This document shows, one piece after another, positions 2,683 through 38,516 of a stretch of DNA of 42,686 nucleotides. Source of the DNA: Escherichia phage PGT2. A model generated the notes under the pieces. That model saw only the letters and a program-made list of their open reading frames with translations. It was not told where the DNA came from and did not search any database. The translations under genes were made by a program, and so were the position numbers. The stretch lies in sequence record NC_047890.1; one strand, 5' to 3'. Every line of letters starts with the position of its first letter. Position 1 is the stretch's first letter.

Positions 2683-3177
2683 ATGAAAGTATTAATTTCT
2701 GCATTCCGTAAAGAAAACGATCTGTTAACCCATATCAATAATCACGCGGAATTATTCGACCGCATCACCGCATTAGGATTGACGCCGCAGCCCGTCGATG
2801 GCGTGTGGAAAGGTGTATCGGAGTTTTCTTACATGGTACACGGTGTTACCACAGCGATGCTCAAAGCGTTTTATGCAATGGCCCGCGACTACAATCAGGA
2901 GGCTATCTTGCTTGTTGCTGATGATAACCGTGCCGCAGTAGTGCCCACCGATGGCCCGGTGATGGCCCCGATGATTGACGTTGGCGACTGGAGGGAAGTA
3001 AGCAAAGAGATCGCGATACAATTTGACGGATACACCAAGACACGCGACGGCCGCTATTTTGTCGCCGCCACTCGTGAGCAGTTCGGCCTCGCCACTCGTC
3101 GGCTGTTAGCCACACAGATGGGCGTAATCGCTGCTAACGAATATGCAGCACGTGTAAACGCAGTGGGAGGATTATAA
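2683..3177 (+). CDS. Hypothetical early protein (164 aa)
   Basis: Start at the second ATG (2683), chosen because the 28-nt block before it is 27/28 identical to the leader of ORF 2123; the provided ORF track begins at the in-frame ATG at 2671. Confidence 0.55.
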   Translation: MKVLISAFRKENDLLTHINNHAELFDRITALGLTPQPVDGVWKGVSEFSYMVHGVTTAMLKAFYAMARDYNQEAILLVADDNRAAVVPTDGPVMAPMIDVGDWREVSKEIAIQFDGYTKTRDGRYFVAATREQFGLATRRLLATQMGVIAANEYAARVNAVGGL

Positions 3178-6369: not shown

Positions 6370-6645
6370 ATGTCTGAGTTCCAGAAGAAACTTAAACAGG
6401 CGTTTTACGCTAACTTCTCCCGGCAGCGGACCGATAAAGAGGGTGTTATCTCTTACCGGACCTATTTTGGCACGTCCCTACCAACCACGCGGTACGTAGA
6501 GACGCTGGTGGATGAGAAGAAGTCTGCGACGGAAGGCGTGGACACAGTGGCGATTGTTGATCAGATTCGTGTGCACCATTTCAACGAAATCATGGGATAC
6601 ATCGACAACGAACTGCGCAAGGTTCTCAAATTGCAGGAGGGATAA
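6370..6645 (+). CDS. Hypothetical protein (91 aa)
   Basis: ATG preceded by SD gtgaggtaa; immediately upstream of primase. Confidence 0.55.
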   Translation: MSEFQKKLKQAFYANFSRQRTDKEGVISYRTYFGTSLPTTRYVETLVDEKKSATEGVDTVAIVDQIRVHHFNEIMGYIDNELRKVLKLQEG

Positions 6646-7466
6646 TGAACTACCGTGATTCCGATTGGTATTTGGCTATAAAAGACCATCCGGTCGGTAC
6701 TCGGCTGCGTATGGCACACGATGGCTGCTCCACGAGTGAGGCACTCATCGTCACAAAACAGGATTCCGGGGTAAGCGCGTATTGCTTCCGTTGCAAATGG
6801 AACGGATTCGTTGGCGCGCCTCCTGAATCGTTGGCCCAAAAGTTAGAGCGTAAATCTCGTGAGAAGCTCGCCAGCAAGGTGATGAAGGATAGTAAGGCGT
6901 TACCATCCCCCAAGTGCGAAAACATCGCTGAGTGGCCGCTAGAAGCGCGGATTTGGCTCTATAAAGCTGGACTTAATAACCATGACATATCTGAAGCTGG
7001 TATTTATTATCATGGAGGCAGTAATCGTGTGGTCATCCCTATATTTGATGGTGACGCGCTGGTGTATTGGCAAGCCCGTGGATTTGACCCTGAAGCGCCT
7101 AAGTACCTCAATCCGTCGGTGGTGGACCGGACTGCTCTTGTCGCCAACTGGTACGGCTCTGAAAGATGCCTTGTTCTTACAGAGGACTGGCTATCAGGCT
7201 ACCGGGTACATCGGGCCACAGGCTTCCAAGTCTATGCCCTCCTTGGGACAACACTCACGGACGCAATCGCGGCCCAAATCGTCTACAACCGTGTACCAGT
7301 GGCCATATGGCTCGACCCGGATTCGGCGGGCCAGACTGCGGCGCGGAAGATTATTGCTAAACTCAGTGCGCTGAACCACCCGGTTAAAAACATCGTCACT
7401 GAGCGGGATCCTAAACTTTACAGTGACGCAGAAATCCGGGAGGTGTTACGATGCGACCCACAGTGA
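6645..7466 (+). CDS. DNA primase (zinc-binding and TOPRIM domains)
   Basis: Cys cluster HDGC...CFRC near the N-terminus; TOPRIM-like LVLTEDWLSGYR and IWLDPDSAGQTAARK; strong SD aggaggg. Confidence 0.8.
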   Translation: MNYRDSDWYLAIKDHPVGTRLRMAHDGCSTSEALIVTKQDSGVSAYCFRCKWNGFVGAPPESLAQKLERKSREKLASKVMKDSKALPSPKCENIAEWPLEARIWLYKAGLNNHDISEAGIYYHGGSNRVVIPIFDGDALVYWQARGFDPEAPKYLNPSVVDRTALVANWYGSERCLVLTEDWLSGYRVHRATGFQVYALLGTTLTDAIAAQIVYNRVPVAIWLDPDSAGQTAARKIIAKLSALNHPVKNIVTERDPKLYSDAEIREVLRCDPQ

Positions 7467-7852
7467 TGGAGAGTTGTTGCATCTGCCATACGCAGAAAGG
7501 TCCCTATAATCAGGCAGGCCGTGCAACATACAAGGGCCGGATGGTGGGGTTACACAGGCTTATCTTCTTTAAGGAGTTCGGTTACTGGCCGGAAGTTGTC
7601 CTGCACCTCTGCGACAACCAGCGCTGTATAAATCCTGAACATCTGGTAGGAGGTACACAGGCAGACAACATCCGAGATGCAGTAGAGAAAGGGCGGTGGG
7701 TAAGAAATTTCCCTAATAAGTTATCCGCAGACACTGTTCGGGCCATACGAAGCGCGGTAGGCACAAACAAGCAGATAGCACAACAGTTTAATATAGACCC
7801 GGCGCATGTAAGCCGTATCAAAAATGGTATTGCTTATAAGGAGGTCACATAA
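7451..7852 (+). CDS. HNH homing endonuclease
   Basis: HNH core LHRLIF...HLCDNQRCINPEHL...N with a C-terminal helix-turn-helix-like segment; sits between primase and helicase. Confidence 0.7.
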   Translation: MRPTVMESCCICHTQKGPYNQAGRATYKGRMVGLHRLIFFKEFGYWPEVVLHLCDNQRCINPEHLVGGTQADNIRDAVEKGRWVRNFPNKLSADTVRAIRSAVGTNKQIAQQFNIDPAHVSRIKNGIAYKEVT

Positions 7853-7923
7853 GCCTCGATAGTGAATTTCTCCGTAGTATCCGACACCGCTCTAAGTTCA
7901 AAGAGCGTATAGGAACTACCCCC

Positions 7924-9132
7924 TTGTATTTGTTCGAAGAGAAGACACGCGACCTGATAAAGCTCATGTCACGTTATTTTAAGACTTACAAGGCGGCAGA
8001 CGTCATCCTAAAAGATGACTTCATAACTTGGCTGAATGAACTAAAGGGAGACAAACTAACAGAGTCTGACAGCATACTGTTTCAGGCACTCATGGAAGAT
8101 TTTGAGTATGACCTGTCTGCCGCCGCCGAGCAGTTCCTGACCGAGCGTTTGCAGGAATCCGATTTAGTCTACAAAACCGCAGACCTGATTGAGAAATGGT
8201 CGAACGGTGATGAGATTGAAATCATTGAGCAAATGAAAATCGTCACCGACAAAGCGGCATTTGGCCGTGCTGACCGGGACGGTATTAAAGTAGTCACAGA
8301 GTCGATTGAGGAGATTCTGGAGCACGCCGGGAGCAAGTGGGGATTCGAGTGGTCATTGCCAATATTAGCTAAGGCCATGCGACCCGCACAGCCGGGAGAC
8401 ATGATTCTCATAGCTGCCCGACCGGACCAAGGGAAGACTACATTCATCGGTAACATTGTCCGGCCTTGGCTGGCACAACTGGATGAAATATTCCCCGATG
8501 AAGAACGCTGCATTCTCTGGCTCAATAACGAGGGACCGGGTACTCGTATCAAGCTCCGAAATTACCAATCGGCCCTCGGCCTGACTATCCCAGAAGTGGA
8601 CCAGATGGCTCATACTCGTGGGATGCTGGACGAGGAATACAGGAAGGTGGTAGCCAATGCCGACCGCCTTATTATCCTCGACGTCCACGGCAAGAACACG
8701 GCACAGATTGAGCGGAAGATTGCTGAATTGAAGCCGGGTGTCATTGTCTGGGACATGCTGGATAAGGTGAAGTATGTTACAGAAGACGCTTTTAGGAATA
8801 CACGTACGGATGAGTATCTTGAAGGCTTGTACTCGTGGGTACGAGAATCCGGTGTCATATATGACTGCGTTAACGTCGTATCAACCCAGTTATCCGGTGA
8901 TGCTGAGAACATGCAGTATCCGCACCTCGGAATGCTCAAAGACTCAAAAACGGGCAAACAGGGTACGGCTGATGCCATCATTACGTTCGGGTCGGTTGAC
9001 ACTTACCCCCGTACACGATTCATTGGTCTTACTAAAAATAAGCTCAATATGGGCCGCGCTACGAGTCGCCTAGGCGAAGTCGTATTCGACGGTGCCCGTG
9101 GCTTAATCACTATGCCAGAGGTAGAGAAATGA
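7924..9132 (+). CDS. Replicative DNA helicase (DnaB/T7 gp4 helicase-domain type)
   Basis: Walker A ARPDQGKTT; the frame is closed upstream so the start is TTG 7924 or the internal ATG at 7966. Confidence 0.8.
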   Translation: MYLFEEKTRDLIKLMSRYFKTYKAADVILKDDFITWLNELKGDKLTESDSILFQALMEDFEYDLSAAAEQFLTERLQESDLVYKTADLIEKWSNGDEIEIIEQMKIVTDKAAFGRADRDGIKVVTESIEEILEHAGSKWGFEWSLPILAKAMRPAQPGDMILIAARPDQGKTTFIGNIVRPWLAQLDEIFPDEERCILWLNNEGPGTRIKLRNYQSALGLTIPEVDQMAHTRGMLDEEYRKVVANADRLIILDVHGKNTAQIERKIAELKPGVIVWDMLDKVKYVTEDAFRNTRTDEYLEGLYSWVRESGVIYDCVNVVSTQLSGDAENMQYPHLGMLKDSKTGKQGTADAIITFGSVDTYPRTRFIGLTKNKLNMGRATSRLGEVVFDGARGLITMPEVEK

Positions 9133-9996: not shown

Positions 9997-12389
9997 TGTC
10001 CTATGTAACGTTCGATTTGGAGACAACGGTCAAATCCTTGGCTAAACGCAAGGCCAGCCCGTTCCACCCGAACAATTTCATAGTGGCGATTGGTTGGAAA
10101 CGACAAAACTGCTCTGTTCAGGGTAGTTACAGTAAAACGGGCGAGCACCATCCCAATTGGTTCGAAGGTCTTTTGGCAGGTACTAAATTACTTGTCGGCC
10201 AGAATATCAAATTTGACATTCTCTATGCTATAACCCGGTCCGAATCGGCATACGCCGCTTGGATGAACTGGGTAGAGGCCGGAGGAAATGTTTGGGATTG
10301 CCAGCTTGCCGAGTATTTACTGCGAGGTCAGGAACAATCAGCCCACATGTTGTCGATGGATGAGATGGTCGAGGAGTACGGCGGGAACACGAAGGTGGAT
10401 GAAGTCAAAGCCATGTGGGAAGCAGGCTACGATACACCGGAGATTCCTGAAGACTTGCTGATGCGTTATCTCTGCGGTGAGACAAGGGATGATGGTACTC
10501 GCGTGTTCGGCGACATTGAGAACACCGAAGCAATCTTCCTCGGTCAATTGAAGAAGGCACGTAAGCGCGGCCACCTGAAGTCCATCATGCTTAACATGGG
10601 GAGCCTGTTGGCCTCCATAGAGATGGAAAAGAACGGTATGGCCGTTGACCTGAAACTGGGCTTAGAGCAAGCCGAGAAGTTGAAGGTAGCGTGCAACGAA
10701 CTCCGCGAGAAAATGCAGCAGTACCTGCCAAGTGACCTACCGTGTGAGTTTAACTGGGGTTCCGGGCACCACTTATCGGCCCTTATCTTCGGCGGCGCGA
10801 TTAAGTACAAGCAGAAAGCCGAGATTCTGGATGACGAAGGCAACAACGTTTACCCACAGATTAAGGCCGTAGGCTACGAGACAGTAACCGGGGACTTCGT
10901 GGTGCCGGGCCACGGTATCTCTGAAGAGCGTTTTCAGGAGATGGTTGAGGCCGGGAACATTGCCACGTACAAGGCCGGGAAGAAGAAGGGCCAGTTCCGG
11001 TCCAAGCAGGTTAACGTTGATGACCTGTCCCGTCCTAAGACGAAGATAATGGAGTTCCGGTACAACATGCCGGGGTTCACGGAGCCGGACCCGAAGTGGG
11101 AGACGAAGCACGAAGGCGTTTACGCCACTAATGCGGACGTCATTGAGGAATTAGGAACACGCGACGTACCGTTCCTGAAAGACCTCACCAAGCTCAACAA
11201 AATGGATAAAGACCTGACGACATACTATATCTGCGAAGACCCTAAGAAAGAGGGGATGTTCAAAGGTATGTTGACGCTGGTCGGCGATGACGGCATTATC
11301 CACGGCAGCATTAACCACACCTCCACAGTGACCGGGCGATTCTCTGCGAGCAACCCTAACCTCCAGAACATCCCCCGTGCGGACACTTCTGAAGTTAAGA
11401 AGCTGTTCATCTCGCGCTTCGGCGACGACGGCCAGATTATTCAGTCTGACTTCTCGTCTCTGGAGATTTACGTTCAGGCATTACTCACAGGTGACAAGCA
11501 ATTGCTGGCAGACCTGAAGAAAGGTCTGGACATGCACTGCGTTCGCGTCGCCAGTAAATTCGGGGTGCCCTATGAGGAAGCAGTCAAACGTTGTAAGAAG
11601 GATGTTGACGCGCCGGACTACAAGCTATGGAAGTCTCGCAGGACTGGATGTAAGGAATTTTCATTCCAACGAGCATACGGCGCTGGAGCGGCAGCAGTGG
11701 CGAACTCTACGGGGATGTCTATTGAAGACGTGCAGGACCTTATCAAGTTAGAGGACGAACGTTACCCGGAGATTGAACCATTCTATGCAAGAGTTACAGC
11801 AGCAATTAACGAAAGCCGAGTACCAACAAGTCTGTATGTACATCATCCAGAGATACGGGGACTGTCTGTCTGCATCGGCAAAGGATTTTATAGAACGCCT
11901 GATGGGAAGAAATACACTTACCGAGAGTACCCTGCTCCGGCTGGTTTTATCAAACGCGGGGGTGCACACGCCTCCTTCTCGCCTCCTGAAATTAAGAACT
12001 ACATTGTGCAGGGTACAGGTGGCGAGTGGGCGAAAGCTGCGATGTGGCTTGCAGTCCGCACATTCTATCGTTTCAACAACTTCGGAGGAAAGGCGCTCTT
12101 AGTGAATATGGTGCACGATGCGCAATACGTCGATGCTCACAATGACGTGCTGTTCGAAGCCTGCGTAGCGTTACATGCTGCAATGGAAGCGGCCAGCGAG
12201 TTCATGGAGTACCGATTCGATTGGCAGGTCGATGCCCCGGTCCCTTCAGAAACAACCTTTGGCCCAGCGATGTACTACGAGACTGGTGCCGACACCCTGC
12301 CGGGATTCGCCGAAGCAGTGCGTGCTGAACGTCTCAAAATCCGTAAGCTGTACATGAACGACTACCAACCATCATTCGAGGGTAATTAA
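9996..12389 (+). CDS. Family A DNA polymerase with 3'-5' exonuclease domain
   Basis: Exo I motif FDLETT; polymerase motif A DFSSLEIYV, motif B RTGCKEFSFQRAYG, motif C VHDA. Confidence 0.9.
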   Translation: MSYVTFDLETTVKSLAKRKASPFHPNNFIVAIGWKRQNCSVQGSYSKTGEHHPNWFEGLLAGTKLLVGQNIKFDILYAITRSESAYAAWMNWVEAGGNVWDCQLAEYLLRGQEQSAHMLSMDEMVEEYGGNTKVDEVKAMWEAGYDTPEIPEDLLMRYLCGETRDDGTRVFGDIENTEAIFLGQLKKARKRGHLKSIMLNMGSLLASIEMEKNGMAVDLKLGLEQAEKLKVACNELREKMQQYLPSDLPCEFNWGSGHHLSALIFGGAIKYKQKAEILDDEGNNVYPQIKAVGYETVTGDFVVPGHGISEERFQEMVEAGNIATYKAGKKKGQFRSKQVNVDDLSRPKTKIMEFRYNMPGFTEPDPKWETKHEGVYATNADVIEELGTRDVPFLKDLTKLNKMDKDLTTYYICEDPKKEGMFKGMLTLVGDDGIIHGSINHTSTVTGRFSASNPNLQNIPRADTSEVKKLFISRFGDDGQIIQSDFSSLEIYVQALLTGDKQLLADLKKGLDMHCVRVASKFGVPYEEAVKRCKKDVDAPDYKLWKSRRTGCKEFSFQRAYGAGAAAVANSTGMSIEDVQDLIKLEDERYPEIEPFYARVTAAINESRVPTSLYVHHPEIRGLSVCIGKGFYRTPDGKKYTYREYPAPAGFIKRGGAHASFSPPEIKNYIVQGTGGEWAKAAMWLAVRTFYRFNNFGGKALLVNMVHDAQYVDAHNDVLFEACVALHAAMEAASEFMEYRFDWQVDAPVPSETTFGPAMYYETGADTLPGFAEAVRAERLKIRKLYMNDYQPSFEGN

Positions 12390-13331: not shown

Positions 13332-14282
13332 ATGACAAAGTTCAAGCTGCCTAAAGACCTCAGTTCGATGGTGCAGCCTGAACCTGTTAGCATTGTCCCT
13401 CCCCAAGTTCCGGGGAGGGTCTGCCATGTTGATGCGGACTTCTTAGCTTACTTCGCCGCTGGCGGTGAGAATATGCCTATTAGCATATGCCGCCAAGTGG
13501 TTAAGGAACGCGTCGAGAAGTTCCGCGTCATGACAGGATCAGAATCTGTACTCCTGCACCTGACGGACAGCCGCTCAACAAAAGGCGACAGATACCTCGT
13601 AGGTGCTACCGTACCATATCAGGGTCAACGTCTCTCTGGTAAGAAACCCGGTAACTGGGCGGCTACCCGAGAGTATATCGAATCAGGTACTCATGGCCTC
13701 CCCATGAAGTTCTGGAAGACGAGGGAGGCGGATGATGGGGTCGCATATTGTGCAGAACGCAGTGGTGGGGTTGACGCTATATGCACAAAAGATAAGGACT
13801 TTCGGATGTTCTCCGGGCTGCATTGCTTATGGGATACGTTCCAATTGGTGCAGGTTAATCCCGGTGATTTTCGTGTGGATGGTCCTGCTCCTGCCAAGGG
13901 CAAAGTACAGAAGTATTACGGCCACTTCTTCTTCTGGCAGCAGATGTTGTACGGAGATACTGCGGATAACATCCCCGGTATACATGGGATTGGCGAGGCC
14001 ACTGCCGCCCAACTTCTGCTTGATTGTACTAATAACGCCGAAGCATTCGATGTTGTCGCTGATATTTACAGGAAAAAGAAACGGGAGGGGTGGTCTGATT
14101 ATATGGTTGAGCAGGCTGCGCTTCTATGGATGCGAACTGACCGACACGCAGACCTGCTGGATTTCCTCAAGATATTCCCGGAAGATGAGGAAATTATCAT
14201 TGCTGCGGAGAAGATGAGGCAGCGGGTTCTCGAAGATAAGGCTACCTTAGAGAGCATACTCAAAGGTTACTCACATAAATAG
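13332..14282 (+). CDS. 5'-3' exonuclease / flap endonuclease (T7 gp6-like)
   Basis: H3TH-type motif GDTADNIPGIHGIGEATAAQLL; ORF track start 13323 is a TTG, ATG at 13332 has better SD spacing. Confidence 0.8.
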   Translation: MTKFKLPKDLSSMVQPEPVSIVPPQVPGRVCHVDADFLAYFAAGGENMPISICRQVVKERVEKFRVMTGSESVLLHLTDSRSTKGDRYLVGATVPYQGQRLSGKKPGNWAATREYIESGTHGLPMKFWKTREADDGVAYCAERSGGVDAICTKDKDFRMFSGLHCLWDTFQLVQVNPGDFRVDGPAPAKGKVQKYYGHFFFWQQMLYGDTADNIPGIHGIGEATAAQLLLDCTNNAEAFDVVADIYRKKKREGWSDYMVEQAALLWMRTDRHADLLDFLKIFPEDEEIIIAAEKMRQRVLEDKATLESILKGYSHK

Positions 14283-14295
14283 AGGGTATTCCGTG

Positions 14296-14782: not shown

Positions 14783-15772
14783 ATGCCAAAGACTAATCTC
14801 ATTGCACTATTCACCAAGGAACAGCACCAGAACATCCTCGGCAAGCACCCCGACAACACGGCTGCTGCCAAGGCGTACAACGAACTGCTGGGCTGGAATA
14901 GTCCGGTAGTCTACCGCCAAGTGGTGGCGTACTGGCGCAAGATTTATATCGACCACGGTGGTAAGAAAGGCGAGGCTATTCGTGAAGAGAAACAAGCTGT
15001 TAAGCTGGTTCAGCCATCACCAAGTGACGATATTGGTAACACTGACGTCCCTGACGTGTGTCGCCGTATCCTTGTGGTTGGTGATTTACATGCTCCTTAT
15101 ACTCATCCCGACGCTATTGCTTTCCTTCGCCATGTCCGAGACAGTTATGTTCCTGACATGGTTGTTCAGGTAGGCGATGAGACGGACGGCCACGCAATCA
15201 GCTTCCACGACTCGGACCCGAATCTGGATAGCGCCGGGGTCGAATTAGAGAAAGCCAAAGCCGTACTGGAGCAATTACATGACCTGTTCCCGAACCTTCT
15301 GGTATGTGACTCCAATCACGGCAGTCTTGTGTATCGCCGCGCAAAGGCTCACGGTCTACCAGTGCAATTTATCAAGAAGTACCGTGATATTCTTTTCCCT
15401 GAGCACGGTGCTAAGAAGTGGTCATGGGCTGACGCATGGGTACTCAATACCCCGCTTGGCCAAGTTCGATTCCAACATCAAGTGTCGGGCGACTTCATGC
15501 TTAACGCCAGCCATGAGAGAACCTCGCTTGTCTTGGGTCACGAGCATGGTCGCTTTGAAGTGCAGTACGCAGCAAGCTCAACAGCTTTGTACTTTGGTGC
15601 ATACGCTGGGTGTCTGATTGACCGTAAGTCTCTGGCCTTTGCCTACGGCAAGTTGCACCGCAAGAAACCAATCCTCGGCGTGATGGTAATCACCGATGGT
15701 TGTCCGCAGTTAATCCCTATGCTGATGGATGAAAACGGGAGGTGGTGTGCGCGAGATAAAACCAAAGGTTGA
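14783..15772 (+). CDS. Calcineurin-like metallophosphoesterase
   Basis: Motifs VVGDLHAPY, VQVGDETDGH, CDSNHG, GHEH; in-frame ATG 14783 with upstream SD (ORF track start 14666 overlaps the endo VII gene). Confidence 0.65.
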   Translation: MPKTNLIALFTKEQHQNILGKHPDNTAAAKAYNELLGWNSPVVYRQVVAYWRKIYIDHGGKKGEAIREEKQAVKLVQPSPSDDIGNTDVPDVCRRILVVGDLHAPYTHPDAIAFLRHVRDSYVPDMVVQVGDETDGHAISFHDSDPNLDSAGVELEKAKAVLEQLHDLFPNLLVCDSNHGSLVYRRAKAHGLPVQFIKKYRDILFPEHGAKKWSWADAWVLNTPLGQVRFQHQVSGDFMLNASHERTSLVLGHEHGRFEVQYAASSTALYFGAYAGCLIDRKSLAFAYGKLHRKKPILGVMVITDGCPQLIPMLMDENGRWCARDKTKG

Positions 15773-15794
15773 TACAGGGAAGAGATTCCGGGGT

Positions 15795-16292
15795 ATGGTG
15801 GTGTACACTTGGGACTGCCCTTACTGTGGTAGAGAGTTTGAGGCTATACGGACTAAGCTCTTCAATACAAGTAAGCGAGGTGGTGCAGGGCATTGTGGGT
15901 GTCAGACTAAGGTTCGACAGTCACAAAGAAATGCAGGGCGTACACCGCCTAATAAGCTGGACGATTTGACAGCCTCCGCTAACAAGGTGTGGCAGTACAG
16001 TACCAAACTAGGCCGGAGCATTACTAAAGAGGATGCCAAAGCCTTAGTAAGTGCAAACTGTTACTACTGCGGGGCAGCGCCCAGCACCTACCGAGAGATT
16101 GGTGGAGGTCGCTGGTCGCGCAAGTCCGAAATACCCACAAACGGAATCGACAGAAAGGATTCATCTGTAGGTTATCACGTACATAATTGTGTACCTTGCT
16201 GCCCTACGTGCAACTACATGAAGTCCGATATGCACCACGACGACTTCTTGGAGTTGTGTAGTAAAATAGCCGACCGTTGGGCCGGTCGCTAA
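15795..16292 (+). CDS. HNH endonuclease (second free-standing copy)
   Basis: N-terminal CPYCG zinc motif and C-terminal HVHNCVPCCPTCNYMKSD HNH motif; start could also be ATG 15729. Confidence 0.65.
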   Translation: MVVYTWDCPYCGREFEAIRTKLFNTSKRGGAGHCGCQTKVRQSQRNAGRTPPNKLDDLTASANKVWQYSTKLGRSITKEDAKALVSANCYYCGAAPSTYREIGGGRWSRKSEIPTNGIDRKDSSVGYHVHNCVPCCPTCNYMKSDMHHDDFLELCSKIADRWAGR

Positions 16293-16332: not shown

Positions 16333-17052
16333 ATGTTGTTAATGCTCTCTGGCGCGATTGGCGCTGGCAAAGATACCTTCGGTGAGTTCCTGTACGACTC
16401 ATTCGACAAGTTCGGCTACAGCGTGGAAGTGGTGAAGTTTGCCGACCCCATTCGTGAAGCTGCATTTAAGCTCGGATTCAATCCAGATGACCGGGCAACC
16501 AAGGAAGTCCCTGCAATACGCCATTATAAACTCTCAGAACTTGATGAGGCCATTTTTACTACTCATACCTGCCTGACACCTTACGAGCGCCGAATGGTCG
16601 CTGTACGAGTTCACCAGAGATTAATTAACATTCGCAAGGAGAAACATGATGGCATCTACAAGCCTGTCGTCAGTACGCGAGAATTTATGCAGGTCGTCGG
16701 TGGGACTGTACGAGACGCTAAAGAAGATTATTACATCCAGCACATGCTTCTCAATACACCAGAATCACGCGTTAACATCTGCACTGATACTCGGTTCATC
16801 AACGAGCAGCGAATTGGGGATTATTCGGTCTACGTTGAGCGCCCAAACAACCCGTTGGCGGTTCATACCCGCGACGCGTCGGAAGCAGCACAAGCGTTGC
16901 TCCGGGGGGCGGCGAAGAAAGTAATCCTGAACAACAGCACTCTGGATAATCTGGCTGAAGAAGCCGATTACGTGGCTACAACATTAATTTCAAAAGGGTA
17001 TTGTGATGACGCAGTTAAAGACGCAGGCGGAACTGGAATCTTTATCGAGTGA
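16333..17052 (+). CDS. P-loop deoxynucleoside monophosphate kinase-like protein
   Basis: N-terminal P-loop MLLMLSGAIGAGKDT resembles T4 dNMP kinase MKLIFLSGVKRSGKDT; strong SD tgagga. Confidence 0.6.
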   Translation: MLLMLSGAIGAGKDTFGEFLYDSFDKFGYSVEVVKFADPIREAAFKLGFNPDDRATKEVPAIRHYKLSELDEAIFTTHTCLTPYERRMVAVRVHQRLINIRKEKHDGIYKPVVSTREFMQVVGGTVRDAKEDYYIQHMLLNTPESRVNICTDTRFINEQRIGDYSVYVERPNNPLAVHTRDASEAAQALLRGAAKKVILNNSTLDNLAEEADYVATTLISKGYCDDAVKDAGGTGIFIE

Positions 17053-18976
17053 GCGCGGTCTTGCCAAGCTGATGGCCGAGTGTGAGCAGGCTGAATCAGC
17101 GGGGCGTGCATCCGGCGCGTTTTATGCCAAGCAGTTGTTAGAGCGTTTTGTTAACCGTATGGCCGAACGTATTGACCACGAGATGGCGAATCCGGGTGCT
17201 GGCCGCGCGAAAGCGCATAAGAAACTGGTCGCTGTGTTTGACTCCAAAGTCACTGCGTTTATTTCTGTATCAACCACATTGAACATGCTGATGGTCAACG
17301 AGCAGACACCGGGCACCAGCCTTAGTCGCGCCCTCGGCAATGCAATGTATAACGAACTGTTCTGTACCACATTCGACGATGCCAACCCGGACCTGTTTCA
17401 CACCATCTGCAAGGACTTGGATAAGCGCCAGAGCAAATCCAGCCGCCACCGCATGACGGTACTGAAGAATCAGGCAGCGAAGAAGGGTATCGCGTGGGAG
17501 AACTGGACCGTCACCGAAATCCTTCAGGTCGGTGAGTGGTGTCTGGATAATCTGGTGTCAGTTGGTCTGTGCGAAACGCATACCGAGGTGTCTCGCGGTA
17601 AGGCGAAGATGTACGTGGAACTGTCCGACGAGGCGCTGGGAATGATTGAGGATACCAAACGTCTGGTGTCCTTCTTCCGGCCCCAGCGCCTCCCGTTCGT
17701 AGAGAAGCCTCTGGACTGGACCGGGATTGTTGGTGGTGGCTACCATACTGCTCGTATGCAGAGTACGATGCCTCGTTGCATCAAAGCCAGCCCGACCCAG
17801 ATGGATGTACTCATAAAGCACCGTGACGACTACAAGGATACGGTGGTGGCGTGCATTAACACTCTGCAATCGGTAGAGTGGCGTATCAACAAGCGTATTC
17901 TGGAAGTGCAGCAGCAGATGTTCCGAGGCTTTGAGCCGAAGAACAAGCCTGATGCTCTGGAGTGTCATAGCAAGGACGTTGAAGAGTGGACCGAGGCAGA
18001 TAAATCTCTACACAGCCACTGGAAGAAGGAAATGGCTCGCTGGTACACAGAGCAGCGTGCAGAGCGTTATGCCGCTTCACGACATGCCTACACGTTGTCA
18101 GTGGCACGAGAGTTCGCTGACTACCCGCGTATCTGGTTCATGTACTTCGCCGACTGGCGCGGGCGTTATTACCCGGCCACCACAGGCATCTCGCCGCAGG
18201 GGACCGACATCTCTAAATCCATGCTGGAGTTCGCCAATGGCAAGCCCATCTCTGACCCAATCGCAGAACAGTTCTTCTTCCTCCTTGGTTCAACTAAATT
18301 CGGATTCGACAAAGGCTCTATATCCGAACGAGTTCAGTGGGTTCACAAGAATCACGACCTTATCTTGGCGTGTGCCGACGAACCGCTACTACATACTGAT
18401 TTCTGGTACAGAGAAGCAGATAAGAAGACCCGCTACCAATTTCTGGCATGGTGTTTTGAATATGCTGAATACACGCGGTTCCCAGCTGGATTTGTATCAC
18501 GACTTCCGGTGTCTCTTGATGGCACATGTAATGGCCTACAACACTATTCGGCGATGCTACGAGATTCGGTTGGTGCTAAGGCTACCAACCTGTTACCTGC
18601 TAACCGACCAAACGATATTTACGCGCAAGTCGCAGGCGTTGTCACCAACCTTCTTGAAAGCATGTCACCTGCCGACTTCCCGGCACTGACACGCGAATCT
18701 AAGCCTCTCAGCGTCTATGAGGTGGACTTCTTCCGTAGGGCATGGTTACACCACGGTATCAGCCGTAGCCTCGTTAAACGGTGCGTTATGACGTTACCTT
18801 ACGGGTCCAAGAAGTTCAGCATGGGTCGCTTCATCAAAGGCGACTACATGATGGACATTCACCCGGAAGAGTTCGACACCGACGACTACACCGACGCAAA
18901 GTATGTTCCCGCCAGACCAGAGTTCGGTGACCTCGATTTAGAGCAGGTCAATCACTCCGAATACTTCTTCCTGTAG
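17006..18976 (+). CDS. T7-like single-subunit RNA polymerase, apparently lacking the C-terminal ~190 aa (motif C and C-terminus)
   Basis: PLDWTGIVGGGY, DWRGRYY...PQGTD, FLAWCFEYA, LDGTCNGLQHYSAMLRD (motif A) and VMTLPYGSKKF (motif B) align with T7 RNAP; the ORF stops about 50 residues after motif B. Confidence 0.85.
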   Translation: MTQLKTQAELESLSSERGLAKLMAECEQAESAGRASGAFYAKQLLERFVNRMAERIDHEMANPGAGRAKAHKKLVAVFDSKVTAFISVSTTLNMLMVNEQTPGTSLSRALGNAMYNELFCTTFDDANPDLFHTICKDLDKRQSKSSRHRMTVLKNQAAKKGIAWENWTVTEILQVGEWCLDNLVSVGLCETHTEVSRGKAKMYVELSDEALGMIEDTKRLVSFFRPQRLPFVEKPLDWTGIVGGGYHTARMQSTMPRCIKASPTQMDVLIKHRDDYKDTVVACINTLQSVEWRINKRILEVQQQMFRGFEPKNKPDALECHSKDVEEWTEADKSLHSHWKKEMARWYTEQRAERYAASRHAYTLSVAREFADYPRIWFMYFADWRGRYYPATTGISPQGTDISKSMLEFANGKPISDPIAEQFFFLLGSTKFGFDKGSISERVQWVHKNHDLILACADEPLLHTDFWYREADKKTRYQFLAWCFEYAEYTRFPAGFVSRLPVSLDGTCNGLQHYSAMLRDSVGAKATNLLPANRPNDIYAQVAGVVTNLLESMSPADFPALTRESKPLSVYEVDFFRRAWLHHGISRSLVKRCVMTLPYGSKKFSMGRFIKGDYMMDIHPEEFDTDDYTDAKYVPARPEFGDLDLEQVNHSEYFFL

Positions 18977-35753: not shown

Positions 35754-38516
35754 ATGGCTATTACGTTTTATGCTACCAACAACTTCACTGGTGATGGTAC
35801 TACCGTAAACTGGAATATTAACTTCGCAGACGGTTATATCGACATCACCACCGTGAAGGCGCGGTATCTGGATAATACCGGGAGCTACGTTGACATCGCT
35901 ATTTCAAGCGTGGCAGGAAACGTAGTAACCATTTCCCCGGCTGTGGCGGACGGTCAGGAGTTCCAAATCTATCGTGATACAGAGAAGCGGTTCCCGCTGG
36001 TGGACTTCTCTGACGGTGCAATCCTCAACGAGACTAACCTTGACACGCTGGCTACTCAAGCTGTGATGGTGTCTGCTGAGGCATTCGACCAGTCTAACAA
36101 CGGTGTGCGTATCGCAGGTGATTCCTTGGTTGTTGCACAGGGTATCGACGCCAAGGCACAGGAAGCTCTGGACAACTCCGAGGCTGCTGTAGCTACAGCG
36201 AACGGTATCGACGGTAAAGCGCAGACGGCATTGAATACCGCCGCCGCCGCTGTCGCCACGGCTAATGCTGCCACATCTACTGCTGCTGGTGCTGTATCTA
36301 CGGCCAACACCGCACTGTCTACTGCCCACGATGCCGCCGATGACGCAGCTACCGCTATCACTACCGCTAACGGCGCTGTGATTACGGCCAATGCTGCAAC
36401 CACTACGGCCAACGCCGCTAGTGCTGCCGCCTCTGCTGCAACGACTACTGCGAACAGTGCTGCAAACGACGCTGCTACTGCTGTGTCTACTGCGGGTACG
36501 GCCTTGTCTACTGCGAACACCGCATCTACCAACGCCTCTACCGCTGTGTCCACGGCTAACGGCGCTAAGGCTACTGCTGAGGGTATCGAGGCTAAAGCGG
36601 ATTCTGCTTTGGCAGCCTCTGCTACCGCTGTGTCCACAGCTAACTCAGCCGAGGCTACGGCCAACGCTATCGACGGTAAGGCTACGGACGCATTAGACAC
36701 TGCCGACTCCGCTGTGGCTACGGCTAACGCTGCTGTTTCTACGGCTAACTCTGCTACTGCTACGGCTAATGCTGCCTCTTCTACTGCGAGTTCGGCTGCC
36801 TCTGACGCCAGTACCGCCTTGAGCACAGCTAATGCTATTGACGCAAAGGCACAGACTGCTTTGGATAATACCACGGCTCTGGATGCGGCCACCATGAAGA
36901 AAGCCGCCAACTTATCTGATATTGCGGATAAGGCGGCTGCATGGCTTAACGTCCGTCCTATTGGCTCCACGCCATTGGCAGGCGACCCGGTAGGGGATTA
37001 CGATGCTGTTACTAAGCGTTGGGTAGAGAACCTGATTAACACAGGTACTGTCGGTCCAACCATGAACGGGGTGATGAACTTCGGCGTCGGTGACTTCCAT
37101 CTCCGGGATAGCCGCGCGTACATCCAGCCTTATGAGGTTGTCTCTGACGGTCAGTTACTGAACCGCGCTGACTGGCCTGAACTTTGGGCCTACGCCCAAA
37201 TGCTGTCGCCTATAACGGATGCAGCTTGGTTGGCAGACCCTCTCAAGCGCGGCGCTTACTCTACCGGAAACGGAACCACTACCTTCCGAGTACCGGATAG
37301 GAACGGTGTTCAGTCAGGCTCTGTAAGGGCGCTTTTTGGGCGTGGTGACGGTGGGAACTCTTCTATCGGCAGTACCATCATGGAGTCCTTCGTACCGAAT
37401 ATCACGGCTACGTTAAATATGCACGGTGCTGGTCCCGCATCAGAACCTGCCGCTGGTACTAACGTGGCAGGATTTGGTGGTGCCTTGGTTGCTACGGGAG
37501 AGGCTCTCCCGAGATACCTGCGTGGGGTTACTCTGTTATCTGCTGGTGGTAACTCCTATGGTGGAGCTACCTTCGATGCCTCCCGTTCCAGTGCTGCTTA
37601 TGGTCGTGGTGGTCTGACTACGGATGAGGTTCTGCCGCGTAACTTCACTGGTGTATGGGTAATTCGTGCATCTGGCGGCTTCGTAGCGGCTAATACGCAG
37701 TGGCAGGTTATAAACCAAGATGCGACTAGGCCCGGTAACGGTACTGCCGTCTTAGGTGGTAATATTGTATCTGAGTACCGCGTTGGTGGTGCCTTGGAGG
37801 GTACAGCAAACTTCCGTATGGCGGGTACTATCGATGGTTCGTATGGCGCGCGCATTGCTGTTTATAATGCCACATCTTTAAATGGCGCCAGCTTCGATTT
37901 TACAGAGCACGGGAACATAGAGACTCCCCTTGGTAGGGCTATTGTTATAGGCAACTATGGTATAGGTTCGCAAGCAGATGCTATACCTACTTCGAGGGAT
38001 AACGCATTTATCTCTAACGCTGATAGTAATAGTTCTTGGTCTGCTTCTAACGGGGGTGGCTTTCAAATTACATATGCAGCTAACCGTATCGTCCAGTTCT
38101 GGGTAAGTCAAGGTGGTACTACGGCTTATTTCCGTGCTAATAGCACAGACAGTAACCCCCAACGACCGAAGTCTGCATCTCCTTGGGTCACACTCCAGAA
38201 TGCTGGTACTTCGGACGCTAATGTAAAAACCGTCCTCGGTGACTTAGACTTATCTATACCGTTGAGTAATATCAACGCACTGGAGTTTAAGAAATTCCGC
38301 TACAACAAGGATGGTGAGGATGGCCCGGTTCGACGGGGCATTATCGCGCAGCAGGCGCAGAATGTGGACCCGGAGTACGTACATTCTGCGGATAAGTCCG
38401 GGGTTATGACTCTTGATAGTAACCCGCTGCTGTTGGATGCTCTAGCTGCTGTCAAAGCACTATCTGCTAAAGTGGCCGCTCTGGAAGAGCGTATTGATGA
38501 ACTAACTTCTCAGTAA
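35754..38516 (+). CDS. Tail fiber protein: T7 gp17-like N-terminal adaptor, Ala/Thr/Ser-rich repeat shaft, C-terminal intramolecular chaperone domain
   Basis: N-terminus LVDFSDGAILNETNLDTLATQAVMVSAEA parallels T7 gp17 [29 protein letters not shown]; C-terminus GIIAQQAQ...LAAVKALSAKVAALEERIDELT is chaperone-like; ORF track start 35742 is a TTG. Confidence 0.8.
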   Translation: MAITFYATNNFTGDGTTVNWNINFADGYIDITTVKARYLDNTGSYVDIAISSVAGNVVTISPAVADGQEFQIYRDTEKRFPLVDFSDGAILNETNLDTLATQAVMVSAEAFDQSNNGVRIAGDSLVVAQGIDAKAQEALDNSEAAVATANGIDGKAQTALNTAAAAVATANAATSTAAGAVSTANTALSTAHDAADDAATAITTANGAVITANAATTTANAASAAASAATTTANSAANDAATAVSTAGTALSTANTASTNASTAVSTANGAKATAEGIEAKADSALAASATAVSTANSAEATANAIDGKATDALDTADSAVATANAAVSTANSATATANAASSTASSAASDASTALSTANAIDAKAQTALDNTTALDAATMKKAANLSDIADKAAAWLNVRPIGSTPLAGDPVGDYDAVTKRWVENLINTGTVGPTMNGVMNFGVGDFHLRDSRAYIQPYEVVSDGQLLNRADWPELWAYAQMLSPITDAAWLADPLKRGAYSTGNGTTTFRVPDRNGVQSGSVRALFGRGDGGNSSIGSTIMESFVPNITATLNMHGAGPASEPAAGTNVAGFGGALVATGEALPRYLRGVTLLSAGGNSYGGATFDASRSSAAYGRGGLTTDEVLPRNFTGVWVIRASGGFVAANTQWQVINQDATRPGNGTAVLGGNIVSEYRVGGALEGTANFRMAGTIDGSYGARIAVYNATSLNGASFDFTEHGNIETPLGRAIVIGNYGIGSQADAIPTSRDNAFISNADSNSSWSASNGGGFQITYAANRIVQFWVSQGGTTAYFRANSTDSNPQRPKSASPWVTLQNAGTSDANVKTVLGDLDLSIPLSNINALEFKKFRYNKDGEDGPVRRGIIAQQAQNVDPEYVHSADKSGVMTLDSNPLLLDALAAVKALSAKVAALEERIDELTSQ
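36100..36900. repeat. Imperfect tandem codon repeats (STAN/ATAN units) inside the tail fiber gene
   Basis: About 16 copies of nCyACnGCnAAy (encoding x-T-A-N) at roughly 7-, 11- and 14-residue spacing. Confidence 0.7.

What the first reader, a model, noticed from the sequence alone, without database searches (positions are those of the whole stretch)
7451..7852. Free-standing HNH homing endonuclease between the primase and helicase genes
The HNH motif and a C-terminal helix-turn-helix-like segment are typical of intron-less homing endonucleases, which in T7-like phages sit between essential replication genes and act as selfish mobile elements. The gene marks a likely variable site between related genomes.
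Basis: partly seen in the sequence, partly recalled or inferred. Interest (0 to 1): 0.4.

Follow-up and report, generated by a model that had tools for sequence, protein, structure and literature searches.

The report
Selfish nuclease gene at helicase start
This is an ordinary free-standing HNH homing-endonuclease gene of a T7-like coliphage (PGT2), but it sits exactly on the translation start of the essential helicase gene, which in carriers begins with the non-standard codon ATA.

Summary
ORF 7451-7852 (+, 133 aa) is a His-Me/HNH nuclease (Pfam HNH_3, 41 bits against a cut-off of 24.8) with a C-terminal three-helix HTH. It lies between the primase (6645-7466) and the DnaB-like helicase.

The window is Escherichia phage PGT2, whose record already names this gene "HNH endonuclease". 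The homing reading is well supported by comparison.
- The closest relative, phiKT (about 95% nt), lacks the gene: 403 nt replace 4 nt.
- Eight of twelve related junction types are empty, including four distant outgroups.
- Other relatives carry a different HNH (38% identity), or a nonsense-mutated one, at the same junction.
- The only other copy of this gene, in an 1.8-kb faecal contig, is much less diverged (dS 0.12, dN/dS 0.13) than its flanks (dS 0.25-1.9).

One detail is new. The insert took over the helicase's Shine-Dalgarno and start position and supplies a new SD (AAGGAGGT) in its last codons. The helicase's conserved first codon (ATG or GTG in nine relatives) is ATA in both carriers and overlaps the HNH stop (ATAA). 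Cleavage activity and actual ATA initiation were not tested.

Verdict: a new member of a known kind, of modest interest.

The parts
6645..7466 (+). DNA primase (Toprim). Its last 6 codons (…REVL-RCDPQ*) are rewritten by the insert; phiKT ends …REVL-GESG*.
   Evidence: Pfam Toprim_4/2 and PHROG 47 at 1.6e-37. C-termini compared.
7439..7444 (+). GGAGGT Shine-Dalgarno inside the primase 3' end. In HEG-less phiKT it lies 5 nt before the helicase GTG. Here it lies 6 nt before the HNH ATG, so the helicase initiation region has been captured by the HEG.
   Evidence: Junction alignments.
7449..7851 (+). Inserted segment relative to phiKT: 403 nt replace phiKT 2909-2912 (GGTG, which includes the helicase GTG start).
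   Evidence: blastn break points W 7448/7852 against phiKT 2908/2913; alignment A1.
7451..7852 (+). HNH (His-Me finger) homing endonuclease gene 'HEG-A', 133 aa. It is identical to ATS92435.1 / YP_009795449.1 of Escherichia phage PGT2.
   Evidence: dN/dS is 0.13 against the L003 copy.
7547..7669 (+). Nuclease core, residues 33-73. Proposed catalytic H52 and metal-binding N73. Proposed Zn ligands C54, C59 and H64, plus C10 at 7478-7480. R36, N61 and D76 are also invariant.
   Evidence: Invariant columns in the 16-sequence alignment A5. Profile alignment to I-PpoI H98/C100/C105/H110/N119.
7718..7828 (+). C-terminal helix-turn-helix DNA-binding module, residues about 90-126.
   Evidence: PHROG 517 and 3642 HTH hits. 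AF2 helices 93-101, 106-113 and 117-124. The paralog phiKT ORF6 hits Pfam HTH_7 at 3e-5.
7838..7845 (+). AAGGAGGT: a new, near-perfect Shine-Dalgarno encoded by the last HNH codons (…K-E-V-T*). It lies 3 nt upstream of helicase codon 1.
   Evidence: Sequence. Identical in L003.
7849..7851 (+). ATA at the position of the helicase start codon. It overlaps the HNH stop TAA (7850-7852), giving an 'ATAA' 4-nt overlap.
   Evidence: Nine relatives have ATG or GTG here and the N-terminus M-S-L-D is conserved out to Caulobacter phage Cd1. Only the two HEG-A carriers have ATA.
7849..9132 (+). DnaB-like replicative helicase, full-length frame of 427 codons. The next canonical in-frame starts are TTG 7924 (CTG in relatives) and ATG 7966 (the start annotated in phiKT).
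   Evidence: Pfam DnaB_C and PHROG 19. Protein alignment A4. Homologs are called at 427 aa.

Best explanation
ORF 7451-7852 is a free-standing HNH (His-Me finger) homing endonuclease gene of the T7 gp7.7 type, with an N-terminal Zn-stabilised nuclease core and a C-terminal HTH. Inferred mechanism: during mixed infection the protein binds and nicks or cuts the HEG-less primase/helicase junction of a related phage. The likely target is a phiKT-type sequence around GGGAGGTGTTAGGTGAGTCTGGATAGTGAATTTCTCCGT. Recombinational repair from the HEG-bearing genome then copies the gene together with short flanks. Shown by comparison: the element is a 403-nt, ORF-only cassette inserted exactly between the helicase's Shine-Dalgarno and its second codon. 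Its own ATG uses the original helicase SD. Its last codons carry a replacement SD (AAGGAGGT) for the helicase. In this cassette the helicase start codon is ATA and overlaps the HNH stop (ATAA). Inferred: the full-length helicase is still made by initiation at AUA, helped by the strong SD and by ribosomes terminating on the overlapping HNH stop. I put that sub-claim at about 0.55.
For: Domain identity:
- Pfam HNH_3 scores 41 bits (cut-off 24.8) and PHROG 59 scores 7.5e-23.
- C10, R36, H52, C54, C59, N61, H64, N73 and D76 are invariant in 16 homologs. They align to the I-PpoI active-site and Zn residues.
- The AF2 model has pLDDT 80.5. Its five best PDB matches are all the homing endonucleases I-HmuI and I-PpoI.
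- Identity to T7 gp7.7 is 36%, E 7e-22.

Insertion polymorphism:
- The gene is absent from phiKT, with flanks 95-97% identical.
- The junction is empty in L015, L017/18, L019, L020, Cd1 and BC.
- The same junction holds a different HNH in L009-L014 (126 aa, 38% identity) and a nonsense-truncated one in L016.

Horizontal movement:
- Between the two carriers (window and L003) the HEG has 17 mismatches in 435 nt, against about 26-33% in adjacent gene segments (Fisher P 6e-17 and 4e-29).
- dS is 0.12 for the HEG, 0.25 for the proximal primase, 1.9 for the distal primase and 0.92 for the helicase 5' part.
- The L003 backbone is L017-like and the window backbone is phiKT-like.

Functional constraint: dN/dS is 0.13.

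Start-codon anatomy:
- The N-terminus MSLD… is conserved as far as Cd1 and BC.
- Nine relatives have ATG or GTG; both HEG-A carriers, from independent sources (454 isolate and Illumina metagenome), have ATA.
- Neighbouring replication genes use ATGA or TAATG overlaps.
- AUA can initiate in E. coli at about 1-2% of AUG in reporters (10.1101/063800). Reported values reach about 7.5-15%, or AUG-like in an optimised initiation region in vitro (PMC5499595).
- 4-nt overlaps support termination-reinitiation coupling that depends on an intragenic SD (PMC6728339).
Against: - No cleavage assay and no cross data exist, so mobility is inferred from comparative patterns only.
- Only two copies of this HEG are known, and one lies on an 1.8-kb contig.
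- These phage genomes are mosaic in general. Nine low-homology regions are noted in PMC5773715, so low divergence of one segment could reflect ordinary recombination.
- The structural match to solved HNH enzymes is weak (Foldseek E 0.045-0.06, TM 0.3-0.4), and plain sequence search of the PDB finds nothing.
- For the AUA sub-claim, AUA is normally a poor initiator. The helicase could instead start at TTG 7924 or ATG 7966.
- A predicted hairpin that sequesters the SD is not significant (z -1.5).
Confidence: 0.85

Rival explanations
1. The gene is ancestral to this phage group and was deleted in phiKT and the others. On this reading the polymorphism reflects loss, not insertion or homing.
For: GGAGGT occurs on both sides of the segment (7439-7444 and 7840-7845), which could mediate deletion. 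phiKT shares the right-flank codon choices (GAT AGT GAA TTT CTC CGT) with the two carriers.
Against: All four distant outgroups (L019, L020, Cd1, BC) have a direct primase/helicase overlap with no HNH. Deletion between the GGAGGT repeats would yield GGAGGTCACATAAGC, not the phiKT sequence GGAGGTGTTAGGTGAGT. The HEG is far less diverged than its flanks between carriers.
Confidence: 0.05
2. The gene is a nuclease with another role, or a remnant that no longer homes. Candidate roles are a terminase-associated HNH, host-DNA degradation, or exclusion of competitors without self-propagation.
For: Many phage HNH genes annotated as HEGs have never been shown to home. T7 gp7.7, the closest named homolog, has no function given in its record beyond the name. 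The sister element in L016 is visibly decaying.
Against: All catalytic and Zn residues are intact and dN/dS is 0.13. The gene lies in the replication module, far from the maturase genes. Related genomes carry family members at different sites: after pol in phiKT, before pol in L015 and before primase in L017. That is the behaviour of mobile elements, not of a fixed accessory function.
Confidence: 0.1
3. Sub-rival on helicase expression: the ATA is not used. In HEG-A carriers the helicase starts at TTG 7924 or ATG 7966 and lacks its first 25-39 residues.
For: The public phiKT annotation starts the helicase at the equivalent of ATG 7966. The window alone has TTG at 7924 where L003 and phiKT have CTG, which could be a compensatory new start. 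AUA gives only 1-2% of AUG in reporter assays.
Against: The 39 upstream codons are conserved in protein sequence out to Caulobacter and Brevundimonas phages, including invariant S2, L3, D4, L8, R9, R14, F17, P25, E31, T33, R34 and K38. Almost all changes against phiKT in those codons are synonymous. Neither TTG 7924 nor ATG 7966 has a convincing SD, whereas AAGGAGGT sits 3 nt before the ATA. L003 lacks the TTG. ATA has persisted while the two HEG copies accumulated dS 0.12, although a single A>G change would restore ATGA.
Confidence: 0.4

Closest known systems
T7 gene 7.7 protein (NP_041994.1, annotated HNH endonuclease) and its relatives in Klebsiella and Salmonella T7-like phages
   Same: 36% identity over 105 aa, E 7e-22, and about 42% to Klebsiella phage HNH genes. 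Size is similar (about 130 aa) and the layout is the same: HxCDNxRCxNxxHL core followed by a C-terminal HTH. All are free-standing small ORFs squeezed between genes of an Autographiviridae genome.
   Different: The genomic position differs: in T7 the gene lies between 7.3 and 8. No experimental homing data for gp7.7 were found here. T7 gp3.8, which sits just before gene 4, and gp5.3 show no detectable similarity to this protein.
phiKT ORF6 (AEZ65089.1) and the HNH genes of L009, L016, L015 and L017
   Same: Same family (33-42% identity to the window protein). Same insertion style: the start overlaps the upstream gene's 3' end and the stop overlaps or abuts the next gene's start. HEG-B in L009 also uses the old helicase SD position and brings a replacement SD plus ATG.
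   Different: These are different alleles or sites. phiKT ORF6 lies after DNA pol and is absent from the window. HEG-B and HEG-C at the same junction keep a canonical ATG for the helicase, while HEG-A has ATA.
I-HmuI (SPO1 intron-encoded HNH homing endonuclease, PDB 1U3E)
   Same: It is the best Foldseek match to the model. From established knowledge, it is a monomeric, modular enzyme with an HNH core and a C-terminal HTH.
   Different: Only 14% identity, with a weak match (E 0.045, TM 0.40). I-HmuI is intron-encoded and nicks one strand. Whether the window protein nicks or makes a double-strand cut is unknown.
I-PpoI (His-Cys box homing endonuclease, PDB 1A73/1EVW)
   Same: It is the only solved structure found by sequence profile (E 3e-4). 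The motif SH-L-C-H-N-T-R-C-H-N-P-L-H-L…DN aligns to LH-L-C-D-N-Q-R-C-I-N-P-E-H-L…DN, matching the general-base His, three Zn ligands and the metal-binding Asn.
   Different: The window protein has no equivalent of the second I-PpoI zinc site: there is no Cys after N73. It has no I-PpoI-like C-terminal dimerisation region and carries an HTH instead. It is of phage origin and free-standing rather than in a nuclear rDNA intron.
T4 MobE and other free-standing phage HEGs; nuclease genes at recombination boundaries
   Same: Free-standing HNH genes lying between essential nucleotide or replication genes. They mobilise themselves and flanking DNA and mark boundaries of exchange between related phages (PMC2790892 and PMC10448857, listed).
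   Different: They belong to different sequence families and different hosts. No case known to me leaves the downstream essential gene with an AUA start; that statement rests on my own knowledge, not on a search result.

Membership tests
HNH / His-Me finger nucleases (Pfam PF13392 HNH_3) | Sequence score above the curated family threshold | tested here: met
   HNH_3 scores 41 bits against a cut-off of 24.8. zf-His_Me_endon scores 29.5 against 27. PHROG 59 scores 7.5e-23.
HNH / His-Me finger nucleases (Pfam PF13392 HNH_3) | General-base His, metal-binding Asn and structural Zn ligands are present and conserved | tested here: met
   H52, N73, C10, C54, C59 and H64 are invariant in 16 homologs. 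They align to I-PpoI H98, N119, C100, C105 and H110. The C10 to C41 equivalence is inferred, not aligned.
HNH / His-Me finger nucleases (Pfam PF13392 HNH_3) | Beta-beta-alpha-metal fold | tested here: inconclusive
   The AF2 model has pLDDT 80.5, with strands 49-52 and 65-68 followed by helix 70-79. The top five Foldseek PDB hits are I-HmuI and I-PpoI, but at E 0.045-0.12 and TM 0.3-0.4.
Homing endonuclease gene (functional class) | Presence/absence polymorphism at one precise site among closely related genomes | tested here: met
   403 nt in the window replace 4 nt in phiKT, with flanks 95-97% identical. Empty sites occur in L015, L017-L020, Cd1 and BC.
Homing endonuclease gene (functional class) | Evidence of horizontal spread: the element is younger than its flanks, with co-converted flanking tracts | tested here: met
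   Window against L003: HEG dS is 0.12, against 0.25 (proximal primase), 1.9 (distal primase) and 0.92 (helicase 5' part). Fisher P is 6e-17 and 4e-29. The sharp right boundary lies at about 7884.
Homing endonuclease gene (functional class) | Site-specific cleavage of the HEG-less allele near the insertion site | not testable with these tools
   This needs an in vitro cleavage assay on phiKT junction DNA.
Homing endonuclease gene (functional class) | Super-Mendelian inheritance with flanking-marker co-conversion in mixed infection | not testable with these tools
   This needs phage crosses. PGT2 and phiKT have non-overlapping hosts (PMC5773715).
Free-standing (not intron- or intein-encoded) HEG | No self-splicing intron or intein around the ORF | tested here: met
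   The insert (7449-7851) is essentially the ORF alone. Rfam finds 0 families at gathering score in the whole window. The primase and helicase are separate genes in all relatives.
His-Cys box homing endonucleases (I-PpoI family) | Two zinc sites, with the second C/H cluster after the metal-binding Asn, and a dimeric architecture | tested here: not met
   There is no Cys or His cluster downstream of N73. The C-terminal half is an HTH. Similarity is restricted to about 40 residues of the core. I therefore do not file it as a His-Cys box enzyme.
Terminase-associated HNH (HK97 gp74-type packaging factor) | Gene adjacent to terminase or portal genes and universally present in the phage group | tested here: not met
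   The gene lies in the replication module, and by phiKT synteny the maturase is about 27 kb downstream. Presence is variable.

The most novel reading that the evidence does not exclude
The HEG-A cassette may have made the essential helicase translationally dependent on the selfish gene. With AUA as first codon, overlapping the HNH stop (AUAA) and placed just after an SD encoded inside the HNH, efficient helicase synthesis might need ribosomes that have translated the HNH ORF to its end (termination-reinitiation). Nonsense or frameshift decay of the HEG, or its imprecise deletion, would then starve the phage of helicase. That would be a 'translational addiction' slowing the usual HEG degeneration cycle. 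Two observations are consistent with it. The sister element in L016, whose helicase keeps SD plus ATG, has already acquired a nonsense mutation. HEG-A is intact in both known copies with dN/dS 0.13.
Probability: 0.15. Interest if true: 0.6.

Novelty: new member of a known kind. Interest (0 to 1): 0.3.

Why it matters
HNH homing endonuclease genes in T7-like phages are routine, and this one is already labelled "HNH endonuclease" in the PGT2 record. The identification itself therefore adds little. The comparative picture has some value.
- One junction between two essential replication genes is occupied in nature by an intact HEG, a second unrelated allele, a decaying allele, or nothing. That gives a compact natural series of the HEG life cycle in a coliphage group that can be grown in the lab.
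- The exact anatomy shows how a selfish gene can insert into a translationally coupled operon without polar damage: it captures the helicase SD and supplies a replacement SD.
- The ATA first codon gives a directly testable case of non-canonical or coupled initiation of an essential phage gene.
- It also corrects the helicase start in the public phiKT annotation, which is 39 codons too short.

Tried and rejected
- **PDB by plain sequence:** no hit. Only the profile of alignment A5 reached I-PpoI.
- **NCBIfam:** no family.
- **E. coli genomes:** no copy of the insert DNA in 5,426 complete genomes.
- **IMG/VR scan with the helicase:** returned only the window itself and phiKT.
- **Metagenome DNA-pattern scan with the conserved right flank:** returned one contig (L008). 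It is a chance 20-mer match with no blastn or tblastn similarity.
- **Exact-protein contig look-up for the window HNH:** nothing on record.
- **HNH-helicase fusion by -1 frameshift:** rejected. There is no slippery heptamer around GGT CAC ATA A, the helicase frame is open only from 7840, and tRNA re-pairing is impossible (and my own reading).
- **Intron-encoded HEG:** rejected (the insert is the ORF alone).
- **RNA hairpin masking the new SD** (7840-7848 pairing with 7862-7873): predicted but not significant, z -1.49.
- **Foreign base composition:** none. HEG GC is 49.0% against a genome value of 51.6 ± 3.1%.
- **Internal sigma-70 promoter or terminator flanking the gene:** the counts are not above shuffles.
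- **Similarity to T7 gp3.8 or gp5.3:** none.

Full report
**Identity of the window**

The window is the complete 42,686-bp genome of Escherichia phage PGT2 (MG201401).
- The HNH protein is 100% identical to ATS92435.1 / YP_009795449.1, "HNH endonuclease [Escherichia phage PGT2]", on a 42,686-bp contig.
- IMG/VR holds the same contig.
- The 260-bp terminal repeat stated in the genome announcement is present (PMC5773715).
- PGT2 is a viable podovirus from horse faeces. It was sequenced on a 454 Junior and is related to phiKT (genus Ermolevavirus, Autographiviridae).

**Observation**

The ORF at 7451-7852 (+), 133 codons from ATG to TAA, is real.
- It exceeds Pfam's curated thresholds for HNH_3 (41 bits against 24.8, residues 33-73) and zf-His_Me_endon (29.5 against 27).
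- It matches PHROG 59 "HNH endonuclease" at 7.5e-23, and its C-terminal third matches HTH PHROGs.
- An alignment of 16 homologs leaves C10, R36, H52, C54, C59, N61, H64, L65, N73 and D76 invariant.
- A profile of that alignment finds I-PpoI in the PDB (E 3e-4). It aligns H52/C54/C59/H64/N73 with the I-PpoI general base H98, Zn ligands C100/C105/H110 and metal-binding N119.
- An AlphaFold2 model (pLDDT 80.5) shows a small sheet, a beta-beta-alpha unit and a C-terminal three-helix bundle.
- Its five best PDB matches are I-HmuI and I-PpoI, but with weak statistics (E 0.045-0.12).
- The closest named protein is T7 gp7.7 (36% identity, E 7e-22). T7 gp3.8 and gp5.3 are not detectably similar.
- Upstream lies a Toprim primase (6645-7466) and downstream a DnaB-like helicase.

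**Is it a variable, mobile element?**

Whole-genome blastn against phiKT is collinear at 85-97% identity. It breaks exactly here: window 7449-7851 (403 nt) replaces phiKT 2909-2912. Conversely, phiKT carries a paralogous HNH (ORF6, about 40-45% identity depending on the alignment) after its DNA polymerase gene. The window lacks that gene, and the polymerase C-terminal tail differs there.

I used helicase homologs to fetch related contigs. The primase/helicase junction falls into four states.

| State | Genomes |
|---|---|
| Empty, with primase and helicase directly overlapping | phiKT, L015, L017/L018, L019, L020, Caulobacter phage Cd1, Brevundimonas phage BC |
| This gene, "HEG-A" | The window and L003, an 1.8-kb contig from run SRR17497126 |
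| A different family member, "HEG-B" (126 aa, 38% identical) | L009-L014, whose helicase is 99% identical to the window's |
| "HEG-C", related to HEG-B but cut by an in-frame TAA inside its HTH, with the remainder still readable after the stop | L016 |

Family members also sit before the polymerase gene in L015 and before the primase gene in L017.

Between the two HEG-A carriers the element is the least diverged segment.
- There are 17 mismatches in 435 nt, against about 26% just downstream (from about 7884) and about 33% in the distal primase (Fisher P 6e-17 and 4e-29).
- Synonymous divergence is 0.12 in the HEG, 0.25 in the proximal primase half, 1.9 in the distal half and 0.92 in the helicase 5' part.
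- The L003 backbone resembles empty-site L017, while the window's resembles phiKT.
- Within the HEG, dN/dS is 0.13.

Taken together, the outgroups lack the gene, the element is younger than its flanks, divergence is graded on the left with a sharp boundary on the right, and the ORF is under purifying selection. This is the expected footprint of a functional homing element moving between diverged genomes. It is not direct proof, because these phages are mosaic in general.

The public phiKT annotation starts the helicase at 3027, but the frame upstream is clearly coding.
- Window/phiKT differences there are almost all synonymous.
- The protein N-terminus M-S-L-D…L-R…R…F…P…E-x-T-R…K is conserved as far as Cd1 and BC. 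In those phages the annotated helicase start overlaps the primase stop by 11 nt.
- The true phiKT start is therefore GTG 2910, 5 nt after GGAGGT, overlapping the primase stop by 14 nt.

In the window the same GGAGGT (7439-7444) is followed 6 nt later by the HNH ATG. The HEG has taken over the helicase's initiation region and rewritten the last residues of the primase (…REVLRCDPQ* against …REVLGESG*).

The last HNH codons (AAG GAG GTC ACA TAA) contain a near-perfect SD, AAGGAGGT (7838-7845). Three nucleotides later, at the position of helicase codon 1, comes ATA (7849-7851). It overlaps the HNH stop as ATAA.

Nine relatives have ATG or GTG at this codon. Only the window and L003 have ATA. L003 was sequenced independently, so this is not a 454 error.

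A single A>G change would give the canonical ATGA overlap (TGA stop plus ATG start). ATA has nevertheless persisted while the two copies diverged by dS 0.12. HEG-B shows the same design, with the old SD position used by the HEG and a new SD before the helicase, but it keeps ATG. Neighbouring replication genes use TAATG or ATGA overlaps, so tight translational coupling is the norm in this operon.

**How the helicase is probably made**

No in-frame ATG, GTG or TTG lies between the frame's opening at 7840 and TTG 7924. TTG 7924 is CTG in L003 and phiKT. Neither it nor ATG 7966 has a good SD.

AUA can initiate in E. coli. Reported efficiencies are:
- 1-2% of AUG in reporters (10.1101/063800);
- about 15% in T4 rIIB and 7.5% in another construct;
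- equivalent to AUG in an optimised initiation region in vitro (PMC5499595).

Four-nucleotide overlaps support termination-reinitiation that depends on an intragenic SD in E. coli (PMC6728339).

I therefore favour initiation at AUA 7849, assisted by the strong SD and by the overlapping HNH stop, at about 0.55. A truncated helicase from 7924 or 7966 is the alternative, at about 0.4. A frameshift fusion is rejected because there is no slippery site. A predicted hairpin pairing the SD with 7862-7873 is not significant.

**Comparison with known systems**

This is a member of the HNH_3 / T7 gp7.7-like group of phage HNH nucleases. By comparative criteria it is a free-standing homing endonuclease gene. 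It works like I-HmuI-type modular HNH enzymes, with a nuclease core plus an HTH. Its active-site loop resembles that of I-PpoI, but it is not a His-Cys box enzyme: there is no second zinc cluster, and the C-terminus is an HTH. It is not intron-encoded and not terminase-associated. Free-standing HNH genes between essential replication or nucleotide-metabolism genes, and nuclease genes at boundaries of exchange, are well described (PMC2790892, PMC10448857, PMC3943268).

**Verdict**

The finding is an ordinary, already annotated HNH gene. Its status as a recently mobile HEG is now well supported by comparison, though not shown biochemically. The modest added interest lies in three points:
- the multi-allelic occupancy of one junction;
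- the "capture the SD, bring a new SD" insertion design;
- the conserved ATA first codon of an essential helicase, which allows a testable but unproven idea of translational dependence on the selfish gene.

Noticed in passing
window 17003-18976 (junction at 18897/18898): The phage RNA polymerase ORF is only 657 aa. Relative to phiKT it lacks 167 codons in frame (phiKT 13788-14289), including the palm motif C 'MIHDDYGTH' that holds the catalytic Asp. There is no microhomology at the junction. All 34 close homologs are 798-866 aa. In a viable isolate this is either an assembly or record error (454/Newbler) or a real deletion that would need explaining.
   Followed up: partly
window 15729-16292 (+): A 187-aa ORF lies within a 547-bp segment absent from phiKT, between the SRPBCC-like gene and the dNMP kinase gene. 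It matches PHROG 1035 'endonuclease VII' (2e-25) and several HNH PHROGs but no Pfam family above threshold. It is probably a second free-standing nuclease or HEG insert.
   Followed up: partly
window 12297-12389; L002 (phiKT) 7358-7821: phiKT carries an HNH gene (ORF6, 128 aa) overlapping the 3' end of DNA polymerase I, and the window lacks it. The last 25 or so residues of the polymerase are homologous but strongly diverged between the two phages, as expected for co-converted flanks of a HEG.
   Followed up: yes
L002 (phiKT) 2910-3026: The public phiKT helicase annotation (start 3027) is 39 codons too short. The conserved N-terminus MSLD… starts at GTG 2910, overlapping the primase stop, as in Caulobacter phage Cd1 and Brevundimonas phage BC.
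   Followed up: yes
L016 2137-2500: The HNH at the primase/helicase junction of this relative has an in-frame TAA inside its HTH. The rest of the HTH (…GVHQSVVSRIRAGRSHVTRF*) is still readable after the stop. It is a decaying homing endonuclease gene.
   Followed up: yes
helicase codons 2-10: window 7852-7878; L015 1205-1231; L009 2504-2530: Two codon 'dialects' encode the same peptide SLDSEFLRS. phiKT, the window and L003 use AGT/AGC CTG/CTC GAT AGT GAA TTT CTC CGT AGT. L015 and L009 use TCA/TCG TTA GAT TCG GAA TTT TTA AGG AGT. That is 8 or more synonymous differences in about 27 nt, including AGT against TCG for serine. The pattern may reflect target-site variants for different HEGs. Not tested.
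   Followed up: no
window 37356-38477 and 1631-2656: The tail-fibre C-terminal region and part of the early region have no nucleotide match to phiKT. The tail-fibre difference is the host-range swap already described in the genome announcement. The early-region block was not examined.
   Followed up: no
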